In this document: positions 13,591 through 17,733 of the stretch, one piece after another
How positions within the stretch are numbered: position 1 is the stretch's first letter
How the letters are laid out: each line of letters starts with the position of its first letter
DNA from: Escherichia coli
GTDB taxonomy: Bacteria; Pseudomonadota; Gammaproteobacteria; Enterobacterales; Enterobacteriaceae
Reading direction: 5' to 3' (one strand)
NCBI RefSeq assembly: GCF_029227855.1
Contig: NZ_CP074356.1
DNA: 64,000 nucleotides
The notes under the pieces: model-generated
Seen by the model: the letters and a program-made list of their open reading frames with translations, nothing else
Database searches by the model: none
Told to the model about the DNA's origin: nothing
Program-made: the position numbers and the translations under genes

Positions 13591-14022
13591 GTGGCAAAAG
13601 TTTTTACACAAGAAGAGCGGGAAAAAATTAAAGGGCAGGTGGTGGAACTCGTGCGCCAGAGCGGTCGTGAGACGTTACGGCAACTGGAAGCTAAAACAGG
13701 TGCGACTAGATATCTGATGAGCGTTCTTGCCAGAGAGCTGGTAGCCAGTGGCGATGTATACAACTCCGGCTACGGGTTATTCCCGTCTGAACAGGCGCGT
13801 AAGGACTGGCAACACGCCCGCAAAAAACTCTCGAGGGCAAAGGTGAAGAAACCTGCTGTGGTTGATCCGGACCTTATCTGGTCATTACCTGACGGAGAAA
13901 TACGCCGCTACGACAGTCGCCTAAACATAATCTGTCGCGAGTGCCGGAAGACTGAAGTTATGCAGCGTATACTCGCATTCTATCAGGGAAATGTTCGATA
14001 TCTATTGAAGCGACGAGATTAA
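13591..14022 (+). CDS. hypothetical phage protein
   Basis: 143-aa ORF with GTG start at 13591 and SD aaggggg; function unknown. Confidence 0.55.
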   Translation: MAKVFTQEEREKIKGQVVELVRQSGRETLRQLEAKTGATRYLMSVLARELVASGDVYNSGYGLFPSEQARKDWQHARKKLSRAKVKKPAVVDPDLIWSLPDGEIRRYDSRLNIICRECRKTEVMQRILAFYQGNVRYLLKRRD

Positions 14023-14345
14023 AGAGCATTAGTTCAGATGTGAATTGACATTTTCGTGGCACAAGATTAGCGCTAGCGTGGTCGTTTGGTTTGTGCCAAG
14101 AGCGGATAATGCTGACATTCCTATGCACTAATTAACGCAGAGCAAGCCAGTTAGTTGGTTATGGAAGTAAGTTGTAGCCAGCAACTATCACCATCGGAGA
14201 TATTTAGGGGGATGCACTCTAAGTTGTAGTTACTTTATAATGTCACTTTCAAAGCGGAAGCTTGTACAAAAGATGGATAAGCTTTTGTATAGTATGGGAT
14301 TCAAGAATCACTAAAAGATGACAACAGTACTTACAGGATGTGGCT

Positions 14346-14585
14346 ATGATCCGAATTATGATTAGAATATTTTCTTTGACATTCGTTGCTTGCGCTGGCT
14401 TTGCTGCATATCACTTCAATAGTGTGCCATTGATGTTCACTTCTGGTAGCTTTCTTGTAACATTTTTAGGTACATTTATTGTTAATAAAAAAAGTTCAGG
14501 GCATACAATAATTCAAAAAAGCGGTAGCCATTCAAAAAATAATCATACGGTCGTTTTTGGAAATAATGAAAACAAGCGAGGCTGA
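14346..14585 (+). CDS. small two-TM membrane protein, first gene of AT-rich operon
   Basis: ATG 14346 with SD agga; MIRIMIRIFSLTFVACAGFAAYHF... two hydrophobic helices and a basic tail; stop overlaps start region of next gene. Confidence 0.5.
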   Translation: MIRIMIRIFSLTFVACAGFAAYHFNSVPLMFTSGSFLVTFLGTFIVNKKSSGHTIIQKSGSHSKNNHTVVFGNNENKRG

Positions 14586-14587
14586 TC

Positions 14588-15184
14588 ATGGTTGGTGTTA
14601 CTCAAAGGTCAGGGAATTACTCACGTAATGTGCAGGTGGTTGTCGATTCTAACTCTGTTGATATTATAAAGTCTCCATCGATTTTTATGGATCTTGTTGG
14701 TATTTTAGTTGATTCGAATGTTATTGATCCTCGTACAAACAATGACTACGAGCCATATGATATTGAGAATAAAATAGACTTCAATGATGTTATAAAACAT
14801 AGAGAACGTATTGAAGGGTTCTATCTATATTCTTCGATGATAGATAAAGCGTATGAAACATTAAATGAAAGTATGCCTACTGCTAAGGAAACGGCACTGA
14901 AAAGCATCAATTCACGATATCTTGATTGTCAAGGAGATTTATTGCTTAAACATAGAGAAGCGTATAAGAGCTGCAAGGATGCTCAGGAACGGAATAATTT
15001 AAAGATTCAATTGGTAAGAGAGTTTGCAGATTGGATAATAGACAGTGTAATAGAGCACATCATTAAGAAATGCTTAAATTCTCTTATGGCAATGAATTAC
15101 ACAAGCGAAGAAATCGAATGCCATGCTTCTTTTATCGTTTATCATGCATTCGTAGAGTGTAAGATTCTGGAAAAACCAATATGA
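14588..15184 (+). CDS. hypothetical protein, 198 aa (candidate effector/partner of SMC-like ATPase)
   Basis: ATG 14588 with SD gagg; AT-rich codon usage; stop overlaps next start (ATGA). Confidence 0.6.
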   Translation: MVGVTQRSGNYSRNVQVVVDSNSVDIIKSPSIFMDLVGILVDSNVIDPRTNNDYEPYDIENKIDFNDVIKHRERIEGFYLYSSMIDKAYETLNESMPTAKETALKSINSRYLDCQGDLLLKHREAYKSCKDAQERNNLKIQLVREFADWIIDSVIEHIIKKCLNSLMAMNYTSEEIECHASFIVYHAFVECKILEKPI

Positions 15185-15417
15185 TTATCTCTGATGTAAC
15201 AAAACCAAGCCAAACCTTGTATTACCTGGGAGCTCGGTTATTAGAATGCATGAGTTCAAATGCTTATTCGTATGTTGATATTATAGACTTGTATAATGAA
15301 TTCAAATCTAAAAATAACAACTCTTCATTCACGCAATATATTTACACTTTAAATTGGCTATATTTATTAGGCCTGGTTGATGCTAACGAAAATGGAGATT
15401 TGATATTATGTTTTTGA
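15181..15417 (+). CDS. hypothetical small protein, 78 aa (candidate middle component)
   Basis: Translationally coupled to both neighbours: 4-nt overlap upstream, 10-nt overlap downstream. Confidence 0.5.
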   Translation: MIISDVTKPSQTLYYLGARLLECMSSNAYSYVDIIDLYNEFKSKNNNSSFTQYIYTLNWLYLLGLVDANENGDLILCF

Positions 15418-17132
15418 AACGGCTAATAGTCAGTTCTTTCAGGCTTGGAGTGATTCGTGATATCGAATTTCACATTGGCGTTAATTTGATTATTGACCGA
15501 AACACCTCCAGCAAAGAGCAAACTGGAAATGGTGTGGGAAAAACTACTGTATTAAGAGCTTTAGATTTTTGTTTTGGAGCAGAACAACTGAATTTTTATA
15601 CCGATCCTGAATTCAAGAAAGAAAATTCGGTTATAAAAAATTATTTGATAGAGAACGAGATTGAGTTTTGTTTAATTCTCACAAAAGATTTGAATAATAA
15701 AACTGCACCAGTAATAAAAATTAAGCGTAAAATTACATCTGAGACTAATAAAACGAAGGTTATAGCCTCAATAAATGAAGAGTCCTATACGAAGGCTAAA
15801 GATTTCAACGAGGCTTTAAAAAGAACATTATATCTTGATTCCGCGATAAAACCGACCATACGAGAGATTATGGGACGTGTTATTCGAAATACGCATGACA
15901 AGATGTCGAACGCATTAAAAACGATAAAAATGGGTTCTAATACACAATATGAAACGTTAAATCTGTTTATGTTTGGGTTCGGTAACTCACAGATTCTGGA
16001 TGAAAAACAGTCAGTGACTAAAGCCTATAAACTGGCGAAATCCGATTATGAAGTAATTACTCGCCATCGCTCAAAGAATGCTTTGGAACAAGCTATTGCA
16101 ATTATAAATAGAGATATTATAGCACAAGAAGAGTTAATTTCTAATTTTCAAGTGGCAGACTCTTATAATGATATGCTTGCTGAGTTAAATGAGTTAAAAA
16201 TTAAAATTAGTGAAGTTTCTATCACACTATCATCTTTGGAGTTTAAGCAAAAATTAAACGATAAGGCTATACTAGATCTGGAAAAAAGTCATGAAAATAT
16301 AAATACACTAGATCTACAGAAGTTGTACTTAGAAGCAACTGATCGGTTAGGTAACTTAAACAAAGAGTTTACTGAGCTACTTTCGTTTCATAATAAAATG
16401 CTTGTAAAAAAAGCTGAGTTTATTAGAAAACAAATGCAGCCAGTGCTGCAAGAAATTTCCAAATATAAAGATGAACTAAATAATTTATTGACTCAAGAAT
16501 CAGAGCTTTTAAAGAGTTTGTCTTCGCATGGGACATTGGCAGACCTGCAAATAATGCAAAAAAAATTAAATTCATTATTTGAAGAAAAAGGTGGGCTTGA
16601 AGCTGGACTACTTCAAATCCAAGAGATGGAGAACAACTTTAATATACTGAAAGCAAAGTTTAATGATGTGTCAGATAGATTAAAATCTAAACTTGACGAT
16701 TTTAACAAACGTCTTGCGCTATTCAATTCCTATTTTTCTTTATATACTAAAAAATTATATCAGGATGAATATATTCTTTCCTATAAAGATTCCTCCGGTT
16801 CTTTCGTTTTTACCATTGAACCTTTAGGAACTTTGCTCACATCAGGTAATCAGGGAGAAGGAAAAAAGAAAGCCCAGGTTGCCTCTTTAGATTTTGCCTA
16901 TTTATCTGTCCAGGAGTCTTTAGAAGCCAGAACACCACGTTTTATAGCTCATGATGGAATTGAGGCAATTCATGTAAATCAAATAAATAAGTTATTCGAG
17001 ATAGCTTCGGGGATTAATGGTCAATATATATTGGCTATTCTTAAAGACAAGTTGGAGAATATTGATCAAGACTTCATCAATAATAGTGTTGTGCTTGAGC
17101 TTGGGGAGGACGATAAGTTTTTTAGGCTTTAA
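15408..17132 (+). CDS. SMC-like ABC-type ATPase with long coiled-coil insert, 574 aa
   Basis: N-terminal RecF/SMC-like head with Walker A TGNGVGKTT (about 15522-15548); roughly 230-aa K/E/L-rich coiled-coil region; C-terminal signature-like SGNQGEG and Walker-B-like RFIAHDG followed by IEAIH. Confidence 0.7.
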   Translation: MFLKRLIVSSFRLGVIRDIEFHIGVNLIIDRNTSSKEQTGNGVGKTTVLRALDFCFGAEQLNFYTDPEFKKENSVIKNYLIENEIEFCLILTKDLNNKTAPVIKIKRKITSETNKTKVIASINEESYTKAKDFNEALKRTLYLDSAIKPTIREIMGRVIRNTHDKMSNALKTIKMGSNTQYETLNLFMFGFGNSQILDEKQSVTKAYKLAKSDYEVITRHRSKNALEQAIAIINRDIIAQEELISNFQVADSYNDMLAELNELKIKISEVSITLSSLEFKQKLNDKAILDLEKSHENINTLDLQKLYLEATDRLGNLNKEFTELLSFHNKMLVKKAEFIRKQMQPVLQEISKYKDELNNLLTQESELLKSLSSHGTLADLQIMQKKLNSLFEEKGGLEAGLLQIQEMENNFNILKAKFNDVSDRLKSKLDDFNKRLALFNSYFSLYTKKLYQDEYILSYKDSSGSFVFTIEPLGTLLTSGNQGEGKKKAQVASLDFAYLSVQESLEARTPRFIAHDGIEAIHVNQINKLFEIASGINGQYILAILKDKLENIDQDFINNSVVLELGEDDKFFRL

Positions 17133-17577
17133 GATTTGTAATTTGATAGATATGTAGATATCATTTTTCTCGCTCAAAACTGACAGTCAGATTTGAGCGA
17201 ATTGCTTATGTAAGTATTTCGCAGAATCATGCCATTTATATTTATTAGAACATACGTACTTTAAATGTGGGAGGCTGTCATGTTGGTTCTTAAATGTTCG
17301 CTGACTATTGCGGTGGTGCGGGTAATTTATTGTTCTGTTATTCTTATGGATCGCCTTTCTGACTGATTTCATATTGGCGAGATAACGGGAGTTAAGTAGA
17401 ATGCCTGCGGGTGCTTGAGGCTATCTGCCTCGGGCATGAACACCAACGGCAGATAGAGAAAAGCCCCAGTTAACATTACGCGTCCTGCAAGACGCTTAAC
17501 ATTAATCTGAGGCCAATTTCATGCTAGACACATGTAGGTTAGCCTCTTACGTGCCGAAAGGCAAGGAGAAGCAGGCT

Positions 17578-17733
17578 ATGAAGCAGCAAAAGGCGATGTT
17601 AATCGCCCTGATCGTCATCTGTTTAACCGTCATAGTGACGGCACTGGTAACGAGGAAAGACCTCTGCGAGGTACGAATCCGAACCGGCCAGACGGAGGTC
17701 GCTGTCTTCACAGCTTACGAACCTGAGGAGTAA
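17578..17733 (+). CDS. hokD: Hok-family type I toxin HokD
   Basis: 51-aa product MKQQKAMLIALIVICLTVIVTALVTRKDLCEVRIRTGQTEVAVFTAYEPEE matches remembered HokD/RelF. Confidence 0.85.
   Translation: MKQQKAMLIALIVICLTVIVTALVTRKDLCEVRIRTGQTEVAVFTAYEPEE

What the first reader, a model, noticed from the sequence alone, without database searches (positions are those of the whole stretch)
16941..16973. SMC-like ATPase may lack the catalytic Walker B glutamate (FIAHDG instead of hhhhDE)
By eye, the C-terminal head has a signature-like segment (SGNQGEGKKKAQVASLDFAYL, about 16842-16900) followed by RFIAHDGIEAIH. If FIAHD is the Walker B strand, the residue after the aspartate is glycine rather than the hydrolytic glutamate, which would imply ATP binding without efficient hydrolysis. 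My alignment is manual and may be wrong.
Basis: inference. Interest (0 to 1): 0.4.

Follow-up and report, generated by a model that had tools for sequence, protein, structure and literature searches.

The report
Lamassu-like ATPase lacking catalytic glutamate
The protein is the SMC/Rad50-like ATPase of a prophage-borne, Lamassu-like (ABC-3C) anti-phage system. It does lack the usual catalytic glutamate, but this is already a known hallmark of that group, so the finding is correct and mostly ordinary.

Summary
Bases 16941-16973 encode FIAHDGIEAIH (aa 512-522) of a 574-aa ORF (15408..17132, +), and FIAHD is the Walker B strand. Four lines of evidence agree:
- the AlphaFold topology;
- head-anchored hhalign registers against RecN and SbcC;
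- covariation of residue 517 with the signature and Q-loop regions.

No conserved D-E lies elsewhere in the C-terminal head.

The missing glutamate is family-wide, not specific to this protein. In 147 representatives, the residue after the aspartate (D+1) is K, Q, R, S or G, and E in only 3. D516 is present in 145/147.

The gene belongs to an ABC-3C operon: a 2-TM protein, a CTD10 protein, MC6, and this DUF2326/YydD-type ATPase. The operon sits in a low-GC cassette of a lambdoid prophage. Lamassu papers already describe deviant Walker B motifs (hhhhD[Q/S/T/E] and hhhhDD) with slow ATP hydrolysis.

New details:
- a glutamate at D+3 (E519) is present in 146/147;
- the Q-loop glutamine and H-loop histidine also appear to be replaced.

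Seen in passing: the tail of the 2-TM protein matches the N-terminus of the CTD10 protein, and the motif is lineage-specific. This resembles amyloid-type effector signalling.

The parts
15408..17132 (+). ABC-3C ATPase of the DUF2326/YydD type, LmuB-like: N-terminal head, antiparallel coiled coil, C-terminal head; 574 aa
15522..15548 (+). Walker A / P-loop, TGNGVGKTT (K45)
   Evidence: G44 148/149, K45 149/149 and T46 141/149 in representatives. hhalign aligns the N-terminal head to E. coli RecN with probability 93%.
15882..15890 (+). Q-loop-equivalent segment, I159-R160-N161: invariant Arg, no Gln
   Evidence: R160 is present in 149/150. Position 161 is Y/I/K/D/N and never mainly Q. A short strand at 159-160 follows helix 151-158. 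Positions 161, 163 and 166 are among the top covariation partners of 517. The equivalence to the Q-loop is inferred from spacing and secondary structure, not from a superposition.
15987..16760 (+). Coiled-coil arm (aa 194-451) with a helical apex around aa 296-321; no CxxC zinc hook
   Evidence: AF2 helices 194-296 and 321-451. The protein has only two Cys residues (55, 88) and no CxxC.
16845..16871 (+). Divergent signature motif, GNQGEGKKK. Family consensus is G-N-x-G-[TS]-G-K-K; this clade has E/D at 484 in place of the usual Ser/Thr.
   Evidence: G485 146/147, K487 139/147, and 484 = T56/S47 in representatives. The motif opens helix 484-504, which leads into the Walker B strand. Position 484 is the best long-range covariation partner of 517, and the reverse also holds.
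16941..16958 (+). Walker B strand FIAHD plus G517 at the position of the catalytic glutamate
   Evidence: AF2 strand 512-516 lies directly after the signature helix. D516 is present in 145/147, and D+1 is E in only 3/147. In the head-anchored hhalign runs, D516 pairs with the Walker B Asp and G517 with the Glu of RecN (ALIFDE) and SbcC (LFLDE); confidence is low in that stretch.
16956..16982 (+). D-loop-equivalent segment GIEAIHVNQ, with near-invariant E519 (16962-16964), plus H522, N524 and Q525
   Evidence: E519 146/147. H522 86/147, with D in 36. N524 117/147 and Q525 127/147. In the RecN alignment, E519 pairs with the Asp of 'DEVD'.
17043..17051 (+). K546-D547-K548 at the end of the last core strand, where SbcC/Rad50 carry the H-loop histidine
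   Evidence: Position 546 = K52/R45, with H in only 5. D547 111/147 and K548 120/147. AF2 strand 539-545. Spacing was compared with E. coli SbcC '...GVISH'. The equivalence is inferred.
15181..15417 (+). ABC-3C middle component MC6 (78 aa), LmuC-like. It overlaps both neighbouring genes (ATGA overlap upstream, 10 nt downstream).
   Evidence: Pfam PF20293 MC6 E=1.6e-13. PGAP names it 'ABC-three component system middle component 6'. It occupies the same position in all homologous loci examined.
14588..15184 (+). CTD10-only protein (198 aa): LmuA/YydB-like adaptor without an enzymatic effector domain. It has a disordered N-terminal motif (14597-14656, VTQRSGNYSRNVQVVVDSNS).
   Evidence: Pfam PF20275 CTD10 E=1.6e-10. 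In the AF2 model, aa 1-28 have pLDDT <50 and aa 29-198 are all-helical. The only probable fold match is YydB in the YydD-YydB integrative model 9a6c_B (probability 1.0, TMq 0.53, E 0.075).
14346..14585 (+). Small protein with two hydrophobic helices (79 aa; PGAP start at 14346, mechanical ORF start at 14340). Its C-terminal tail (14508-14567, IIQKSGSHSKNNHTVVFGNN) matches the N-terminus of the CTD10 protein. It is the putative membrane effector.
   Evidence: Hydropathy scan gives 2 TM segments. The tail/head alignment scores 43, and 0 of 1000 shuffles reach that score. The same arrangement, with lineage-specific matching motifs, occurs in 8 other loci.

Best explanation
FIAHD (aa 512-516) is the Walker B strand of the ATPase of an ABC-3C (Lamassu-like, YydBCD-type) anti-phage operon carried on a prophage.

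The ATPase keeps the residues needed to bind Mg-ATP: the Walker A lysine K45 and the Walker B aspartate D516. It lacks the general-base glutamate, which is glycine here and K, Q, R, S or G across the family. By inference it also lacks the Q-loop glutamine and the H-loop histidine.

The most likely mode of action follows LmuB in Lamassu. The protein works as a natural 'EQ-like' switch. ATP drives engagement of the two heads of a coiled-coil dimer, hydrolysis is slow, and the long-lived engaged state, probably on phage DNA ends or replication intermediates, releases or activates the CTD10-bound effector module.

What is shown: the motif assignment, the family-wide loss of the glutamate, and the operon membership. 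What is inferred: slow hydrolysis, the DNA trigger and the release mechanism, all taken from the LmuB literature.
For: Motif assignment:
- AF2 places strand 512-516 directly after signature helix 484-504, followed by helix 523-535 and strand 539-545. This is the canonical order of an ABC C-terminal half.
- hhalign of the concatenated heads against RecN (probability 90%) and SbcC pairs D516 with the Walker B Asp and G517 with the catalytic Glu.
- The spacing from the signature motif to the Asp is 32 residues, against 31 in SbcC.
- Residue 517 covaries best with 520, 484, 488 and 161-166, that is the signature and Q-loop regions that surround the gamma-phosphate.
- Three of 147 representatives carry a canonical D-E at exactly this column.

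ATP binding retained: K45 149/149 and D516 145/147.

System identity: Pfam MC6, CTD10 and DUF2326; PADLOC PDC-M68B, plus LmuB models in 34/38 members; PGAP names; conserved synteny.

Precedent:
- LmuB 'variant Walker B ... glutamate replaced by glutamine'. The complex turns over about 1 ATP/min with DNA, and this is abolished by K40I or S536R. S536R also kills defence.
- Short Lamassu has hhhhD[Q/S/T/E] and long Lamassu has hhhhDD, with slow hydrolysis.
Against: - No biochemical data exist for this family.
- E519 (D+3) is present in 146/147 and could act as the base, so hydrolysis may not be slow.
- One study reports a 'moderate' ATPase rate for LmuB despite its deviant motif.
- The profile alignment of the C-terminal head alone against SbcC/Rad50 is not significant, and its best local register is shifted by one residue.
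- No LmuB sequence could be obtained for a residue-level alignment.
Confidence: 0.7

Rival explanations
1. The catalytic carboxylate has moved rather than been lost. E519, two residues after the canonical position, activates the water, so the enzyme is a competent ATPase with a non-canonical 'hhhhD-x-h-E' Walker B.
For: E519 is present in 146/147, while D+1 is free to vary among K, Q, R, S and G. Even the three D-E members keep E519. LmuB proteins without the glutamate still hydrolyse ATP.
Against: In the RecN alignment, E519 pairs with the Asp of 'DEVD'. RecN has that residue in addition to its catalytic Glu, so an acidic D+3 does not have to be the base. The geometry could not be measured. 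E519 could equally be structural, or a D-loop contact with the partner head.
Confidence: 0.22
2. In the G517 clade the base is supplied in trans. The acidic residue at signature position 484 (E in this protein) of the partner head reaches into the space freed by glycine, so hydrolysis depends strictly on head engagement.
For: Among near relatives, G517 pairs with D/E484 in 50/50 cases and Q517 with T/A484 in 61/61. Positions 484 and 517 are each other's best long-range covariation partners. The G/acidic combination occurs in two clades, the enterobacterial clade and the P0086 clade, which are only ~29% identical.
Against: The covariation may simply reflect shared ancestry. Among representatives with G517, only 3 of 8 have D/E at 484. 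A carboxylate at the position of the signature serine would be expected to repel the gamma-phosphate. There is no structural test.
Confidence: 0.08
3. The nucleotide site is degenerate. The protein is a scaffold that no longer uses ATP.
For: The catalytic Glu, the Q-loop Gln and the H-loop His are all missing from their expected positions, and the signature motif is divergent.
Against: Walker A G-K-T-T, the Walker B Asp, E519, Q539, D547 and K548 are all near-invariant across sequences that share <50% identity. A dead site would have drifted. In LmuB, Walker A and signature mutants lose defence.
Confidence: 0.05
4. The manual alignment is wrong, and a canonical hhhhDE Walker B lies elsewhere in the C-terminal head.
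For: The sequence-only profile comparison of the C-terminal head with SbcC/Rad50 is not significant.
Against: Only two other acidic dipeptides exist in the head, at 453-454 and 567-569. Neither is conserved as D-E and neither follows a hydrophobic strand. AF2 topology, the head-anchored alignments and covariation all point to 512-517.
Confidence: 0.02

Closest known systems
LmuB of short Lamassu / DdmC (DUF3732; PDB 9uxl, 9hqu, 9hqx)
   Same: - About 570-630 aa with a short coiled coil.
- Encoded last in an effector(CTD)-middle component-ATPase operon.
- Walker B lacks the catalytic Glu.
- Like V. cholerae LmuB, it has no zinc hook.
- 34/38 family members hit PADLOC LmuB models.
   Different: - The Pfam family is DUF2326, not DUF3732.
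- The best PADLOC model is the untested candidate PDC-M68B.
- D+1 is G/K/R/Q/S rather than mostly Q.
- E at D+3 is near-invariant.
- The signature motif is [TS/ED]-G-K-K rather than containing the S536-type serine.
- The partners are MC6 and CTD10, and the CTD10 model does not match the LmuA CTD in Foldseek.
B. subtilis YydD-YydB (PDB 9a6c, integrative model from crosslinking MS)
   Same: - YydD is the top Foldseek hit for the ATPase, E 5.5e-22.
- YydB is the only probable hit for the CTD10 protein.
- Both ATPases are DUF2326; JGI names some relatives 'YydD (DUF2326 family)'.
   Different: - Only 14% and 12% identity.
- YydB is 481 aa, so it carries a large extra region. Here the CTD10 protein has no enzymatic domain and is preceded by a small 2-TM protein.
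Rad50/SbcC and SMC heads, including engineered Walker B E-to-Q mutants
   Same: - The N-terminal head aligns to RecN with probability 93%.
- Functionally it resembles the E-to-Q mutants, which bind ATP and engage heads but hydrolyse poorly (established knowledge; cited).
   Different: - There is no Mre11/SbcD or kleisin partner.
- The coiled coil is much shorter.
- The Glu, the Q-loop Gln and the H-loop His are naturally absent.
- The context is defence, not DNA repair.
Bab/Agp BASS11 amyloid signalling pair of E. coli prophage hotspots, and NLR/Bell or NWD2/HET-S pairs
   Same: - This applies to the side observation only.
- A small membrane-targeting protein carries a C-terminal G/N/Q-rich motif that matches the N-terminus of the adjacent sensor-side protein.
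- The context is prophage defence.
   Different: - The sensor side here is a CTD10 adaptor of an SMC-like ABC-3C ATPase, not an NLR or a TPR-PIN protein.
- The effector has two hydrophobic helices rather than a Bell domain.
- Amyloid formation was not tested.

Membership tests
ABC ATPase superfamily, SMC/Rad50-like (coiled-coil insert) clade | Walker A GxxxxGK[ST] | tested here: met
   TGNGVGKTT. K45 149/149 and G44 148/149. The first Gly is replaced by S/T39.
ABC ATPase superfamily, SMC/Rad50-like (coiled-coil insert) clade | Walker B hhhhD followed by the catalytic Glu | tested here: not met
   The strand FIAHD with D516 (145/147) is present. D+1 is G here and is E in only 3/147.
ABC ATPase superfamily, SMC/Rad50-like (coiled-coil insert) clade | Signature motif (LSGGQ/E) at the N-terminus of the helix preceding Walker B | tested here: inconclusive
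   A conserved G-[TS]-G-K-K sits at the right place, but it is divergent. In this protein the S/T position is E484.
ABC ATPase superfamily, SMC/Rad50-like (coiled-coil insert) clade | Q-loop Gln and H-loop His | tested here: inconclusive
   The positions inferred from spacing and secondary structure carry I-R160-x and [KR]546-D-K, with no Q or H. No residue-level superposition was possible.
ABC ATPase superfamily, SMC/Rad50-like (coiled-coil insert) clade | Bipartite head fold with a coiled coil inserted between the N- and C-terminal halves | tested here: met
   [not shown]
ABC-3C (ABC-three-component) system, Krishnan et al. 2020 | An operon encoding a coiled-coil ABC ATPase, a small middle component, and a protein carrying an ABC-3C C-terminal domain | tested here: met
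   Pfam MC6 (1.6e-13), CTD10 (1.6e-10) and DUF2326 (4e-14) on overlapping co-directional genes. The order is conserved in Dickeya, Flavobacterium and 20+ other loci. The defining paper itself could not be read.
Lamassu (LmuA-LmuC-LmuB) | LmuB-family (DUF3732) ATPase | tested here: inconclusive
   [not shown]
Lamassu (LmuA-LmuC-LmuB) | Deviant Walker B (hhhhD[Q/S/T/E] or hhhhDD) | tested here: met
   The family has D-[K/Q/R/S/G]. Literature definition.
Lamassu (LmuA-LmuC-LmuB) | Demonstrated anti-phage activity and DNA-end sensing | not testable with these tools
   PADLOC lists the family only as an untested candidate, PDC-M68. The defence context is supported by neighbouring AbiEii, MmeI-type RM and integrase genes, and by prophage locations.
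DUF2326 / YydD family | Pfam PF10088 match above the gathering score on the C-terminal head | tested here: met
   52.9 bits against a cutoff of 28.7, over aa 447-573. 38/38 aligned relatives match.
Amyloid signalling pair (BASS-type); side observation | A matching short motif at the C-terminus of the effector and the N-terminus of the adjacent sensor-side protein | tested here: met
   In 9 loci the cognate alignment scores are 35-79. Shuffles reach the observed score 0/1000 times in 7 loci, 1/1000 in one and 9/1000 in one. The motifs are lineage-specific.
Amyloid signalling pair (BASS-type); side observation | The motif forms cross-beta fibrils and templates the partner | not testable with these tools
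   The only supporting data are the G/N/Q/S-rich composition alternating with V/I, and predicted disorder of the motif in the monomer (pLDDT <50 for aa 1-28).

The most novel reading that the evidence does not exclude
The Walker-B-deviant ATPase is the slow switch of a Lamassu-type sensor whose seemingly missing effector is a separate small 2-TM protein. After activation, the CTD10 adaptor would use its N-terminal G/N/Q-rich motif to template or recruit the matching C-terminal motif of the membrane protein, in the manner of amyloid signalling (Bab/Agp, NLR/Bell), and kill the cell through the membrane. This would link SMC-like sensors to amyloid-type signalling for the first time. It may also explain the published 'effector-less' clade of short Lamassu. 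Within the ATPase itself, the near-invariant E519 at D+3, or E484 acting in trans, may replace the lost Walker B glutamate.
Probability: 0.3. Interest if true: 0.75.

Novelty: new member of a known kind. Interest (0 to 1): 0.35.

Why it matters
The missing glutamate itself adds little. A deviant Walker B is already a recognised hallmark of Lamassu/ABC-3C ATPases, where it is read as slow hydrolysis with ATP-dependent head engagement as the signalling step.

The analysis does add three things:
- The hallmark extends to the DUF2326/YydD branch, which PADLOC lists only as an untested candidate. That branch has a different consensus, hhhhD-x-h-E, with a near-invariant glutamate at D+3. This gives a concrete residue for asking how these ATPases hydrolyse ATP at all, a question the Lamassu papers leave open.
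- The active site looks remodelled as a whole, with changes at the Q-loop, H-loop and signature motif.
- The operon context shows an effector arrangement that, if confirmed, would be a new coupling between an SMC-like sensor and a membrane effector: a 2-TM protein and a CTD10 adaptor that share a lineage-specific motif.

Tried and rejected
- **Profile search of the PDB.** HMM searches with the full-length family (A1) and the C-terminal head (A2) returned only coiled-coil noise and chance hits, with no ABC ATPase.
- **hhalign of the C-terminal head alone.** Against E. coli SbcC or RecN as single sequences, and against a 3-sequence SbcC/Rad50 alignment built from PDB hits, nothing was significant. 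The best local register was shifted by one residue. Only the concatenated heads, anchored by the N-terminal half, gave the expected D-to-D register, and confidence there was low.
- **LmuB sequence.** I could not obtain one for a residue-level alignment. The PNAS paper has no held supplements, and no collection here can be searched by annotation text.
- **Krishnan et al. 2020.** This paper, which defines ABC-3C, is not held. What I say about its content comes from papers that cite it and from my own knowledge.
- **Model coordinates.** They are not exposed to the scripting environment, so the distance from E519 or E484 to the nucleotide could not be measured.
- **Other candidate Walker B sites.** D453-E454 and E567-D568-D569 were considered and rejected.
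- **Literature on DUF2326 or YydD.** Nothing relevant was found.
- **Phage genomes.** Megablast of the cassette against deposited phage genomes found no match.
Full report
**1. Observation**

The finding lies in ORF 15408..17132 (+), 574 aa. Bases 16941-16973 translate to FIAHDGIEAIH (aa 512-522). Bases 16842-16904 translate to SGNQGEGKKKAQVASLDFAYL.

**2. What the gene is**

Pfam places the C-terminal 127 aa in DUF2326 (E 4e-14, above the curated cutoff). The two genes upstream are ABC-3C families: MC6 (15181..15417, E 1.6e-13) and CTD10 (14588..15184, E 1.6e-10). PADLOC's best model is the untested candidate PDC-M68B (1.3e-41), with weak LmuB and AriA hits. Across 38 aligned relatives, 34 also hit LmuB models, the best at 8.6e-21. 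No member hits Pfam DUF3732.

The identical cassette occurs in 16 of 5426 complete E. coli genomes. PGAP annotates it as 'ABC-three component system protein', 'ABC-three component system middle component 6' and 'DUF2326 domain-containing protein'.

The cassette sits in a lambdoid prophage inserted next to rspB. The order is int, xis, exonuclease, dicB, cI/cro-like genes, replication genes, the cassette, hokD, rem, ydfU, Q and the lysis genes. Its GC content is 30-38%, against 44-56% in the flanks. IMG/VR holds the same cassette on predicted viral contigs. Deposited phage genomes do not.

**3. Is FIAHD the Walker B strand?**

Four independent lines say yes.

- *Predicted topology.* The AlphaFold2 model (38-sequence alignment, pLDDT 84, pTM 0.70) has an N-terminal head, two long antiparallel helices (194-296 and 321-451), and a C-terminal head. 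The C-terminal head runs: hairpin 455-472, a loop with GNQGEGKKK, helix 484-504, strand 512-516, helix 523-535, strand 539-545, then the terminal strands. This is the canonical ABC order of signature helix, Walker B strand, D-loop helix and H-loop strand.
- *Alignment register.* hhalign of the N-terminal head against E. coli RecN gives probability 93%. With the two heads concatenated, the alignment extends into the C-terminal head. There D516 pairs with the Walker B Asp, and G517 with the catalytic Glu, of both RecN (ALIFDEVD) and SbcC (SLFLDEGF). Confidence in that stretch is low. The signature-to-Asp spacing is 32 residues, against 31 in SbcC.
- *Covariation.* In a 168-sequence non-redundant alignment, the best covariation partners of column 517 are 520, 484, 488, 166, 163 and 161. 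These are the signature motif and the segment after R160, which is the inferred Q-loop. Column 484's best partner is 517. This is what one expects of residues that surround the gamma-phosphate in an engaged ABC dimer.

The refuting condition fails. The only other acidic dipeptides in the C-terminal head are D453-E454 and E567-D568-D569. Neither is conserved as D-E and neither follows a hydrophobic strand.

Sequence-only comparison of the C-terminal head with PDB chains or with SbcC/Rad50 was not significant. The assignment therefore rests on structure prediction, the anchored alignments and covariation.

**4. The loss is family-wide**

Among 113 near relatives, D+1 is Q (59), G (49), S, K or R, and never E. 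Counts among 147 full-length representatives at <50% mutual identity:

| Position | Residues observed |
|---|---|
| F512 | 146 |
| D516 | 145 |
| D+1 (517) | K67, Q28, R20, S16, G9, E3, N2 |
| E519 (D+3) | 146 |
| H522 | 86 (D in 36) |
| N524 | 117 |
| Q525 | 127 |
| Q539 | 147 |

Walker A is intact, with K45 present in 149/149. The three members with a canonical D-E also have serine at the signature position.

By spacing and secondary structure, the Q-loop position carries I-R160-x. R160 is present in 149/150 and there is no Gln. The H-loop position carries [KR]546-D547-K548, with His in only 5 sequences. These two equivalences are inferred, not superposed.

The signature motif is G-[TS]-G-K-K. 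In this protein's clade the S/T is replaced by E or D. Among near relatives that change pairs perfectly with G517: 50/50, against Q517 with T/A484 in 61/61. This may be phylogenetic.

**5. What is already known**

Three recent Lamassu papers describe exactly this kind of deviation.

[quoted passage not shown] The Salmonella complex turns over about 1 ATP/min, and only with DNA. This is abolished by K40I or S536R, and S536R also abolishes defence.
- Long Lamassu has hhhhDD and short Lamassu has hhhhD[Q/S/T/E]. The authors read this as slow hydrolysis.
- Bacillus and Vibrio LmuB have a 'naturally deviant Walker B' yet hydrolyse ATP at a moderate rate.

DdmC was likewise described as having an 'atypical Walker B'. 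Reviews place ABC-3C, DdmABC and Lamassu in one superfamily.

It is not new, and those same papers show that hydrolysis is reduced rather than absent.

**6. Most likely mechanism**

*Shown:* the protein keeps the Mg-ATP-binding residues, lacks the canonical base, has an SMC/Rad50-like fold with a short coiled coil and no zinc hook, and is encoded with MC6 and a CTD10 protein.

*Inferred by analogy to LmuACB:* a dimer whose heads engage on ATP, with slow hydrolysis giving a long-lived engaged state, triggered by phage DNA ends or replication intermediates, and releasing or activating the CTD-bound effector module.

The near-invariant E519 is the main caveat. It may be a relocated base (rival 1), a D-loop contact, or structural. 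RecN has an Asp at the same offset ('DEVD') in addition to its catalytic Glu. This argues that an acidic D+3 need not be the base.

**7. Side observation: the effector module**

The CTD10 protein here is only 198 aa. Its AF2 model has a disordered N-terminus (aa 1-28, pLDDT <50) and an all-helical body. The only probable fold match is YydB, the crosslinking partner of YydD.

In relatives the CTD10 protein is longer and carries an enzymatic N-terminal domain:
- HNH-like (CxxC...H...CxxHH) in L006, L010, L025 and L026;
- a ~170-aa domain of unknown type in L016, L018 and L023.

Wherever the CTD10 protein is short, a small protein with one or two hydrophobic helices lies directly upstream, and its C-terminal tail resembles the N-terminus of the CTD10 protein. 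This holds in the window, Dickeya L004, and loci L015, L009, L008, L022, L024, L027 and L029. Examples:

| Locus | Tail of the TM protein | N-terminus of the CTD10 protein |
|---|---|---|
| E. coli (window) | IIQKSGSHSKNNHTVVFGNN | VTQRSGNYSRNVQVVVDSNS |
| L009 | TGYQAENMTVNN | TGYQADRMTVHN |
| L022 | SVNNKGVIGGSISGGVSNN | SVNNKGIIAGKIEGDVTNN |

Cognate Smith-Waterman scores are 35-79. One thousand shuffles reach the observed score 0 times in seven loci, once in one locus and nine times in one locus. Non-cognate pairs mostly score 15-35.

The motifs differ between lineages but match within each pair. They are G/N/Q/S-rich with alternating V/I. This is the architecture of amyloid signalling pairs: NLR/Bell BASS motifs and the experimentally shown Bab/Agp system of E. 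coli prophage hotspots.

No paper in the library links amyloid signalling to Lamassu. [quoted passage not shown] Whether that is this family could not be checked. Amyloid formation itself is untested.

**8. Verdict**

The feature is a new member-level instance (the DUF2326/YydD branch, with Gly at D+1) of a known property of Lamassu/ABC-3C ATPases.

The points worth carrying forward are the near-invariant D+3 glutamate, the wholesale remodelling of the catalytic motifs, and the paired-motif 2-TM effector arrangement.

Noticed in passing
window 14508-14567 (tail of the 2-TM protein) and 14597-14656 (N-terminus of the CTD10 protein); also L004, L015, L009, L008, L022, L024, L027, L029: The C-terminal tail of the small TM protein and the N-terminus of the adjacent CTD10-only protein share a G/N/Q/S-rich motif. 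The motif is lineage-specific but matches within each pair. Cognate scores are 35-79, and shuffles reach the observed score 0/1000 times in 7 of 9 loci. The arrangement resembles amyloid signalling pairs such as Bab/Agp and NLR/Bell.
   Followed up: partly
L006 3979-4773, L010 2959-3780, L025 2953-3783, L026 2959-3780; L016 2819-3796, L018 2832-3812, L023 2819-3796: The CTD10 proteins of related DUF2326 systems are modular. Some are 264-276 aa with an N-terminal HNH-like domain. Others are ~325 aa with an unidentified N-terminal domain. Neither type has a TM partner gene upstream.
   Followed up: partly
window 14000-17200: The four-gene cassette has 30-38% GC, against 44-56% in the surrounding prophage. 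It lies between the replication genes and the hokD/rem/ydfU/Q region. It is present in only 16 of 5426 complete E. coli genomes.
   Followed up: yes
ATPase aa 484 (window 16857-16859) and aa 517 (16956-16958): The signature-motif position that is normally Ser/Thr is Glu here. It covaries with the Walker B D+1 residue: G517 with D/E484 in 50/50 near relatives and Q517 with T/A484 in 61/61. The two columns are each other's best long-range MI partners. This could reflect contact across the engaged dimer, or phylogeny.
   Followed up: partly
L004 and L005 4772-5010 (Dickeya dadantii): The MC6 gene is split into 57-aa and 25-aa ORFs in two Dickeya genomes. This is probably a frameshifted, inactivated copy of the system. 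IS elements and RHS toxin genes lie nearby.
   Followed up: no
L026 2540-2962: Upstream of an HNH-CTD10 gene lies a 140-aa HTH (Xre-like) protein with an internal G/N-rich stretch (NQQANGNSGVIMGNNNSNVNNVAASHGGDIEG) that resembles the paired motifs. Its significance is unknown.
   Followed up: no
window 17521-17733 and L001 12379-12534: A hokD type I toxin gene lies immediately downstream of the ATPase gene, so a second toxic small membrane protein is adjacent to the cassette. It is part of the Qin/Rac-like prophage backbone.
   Followed up: no
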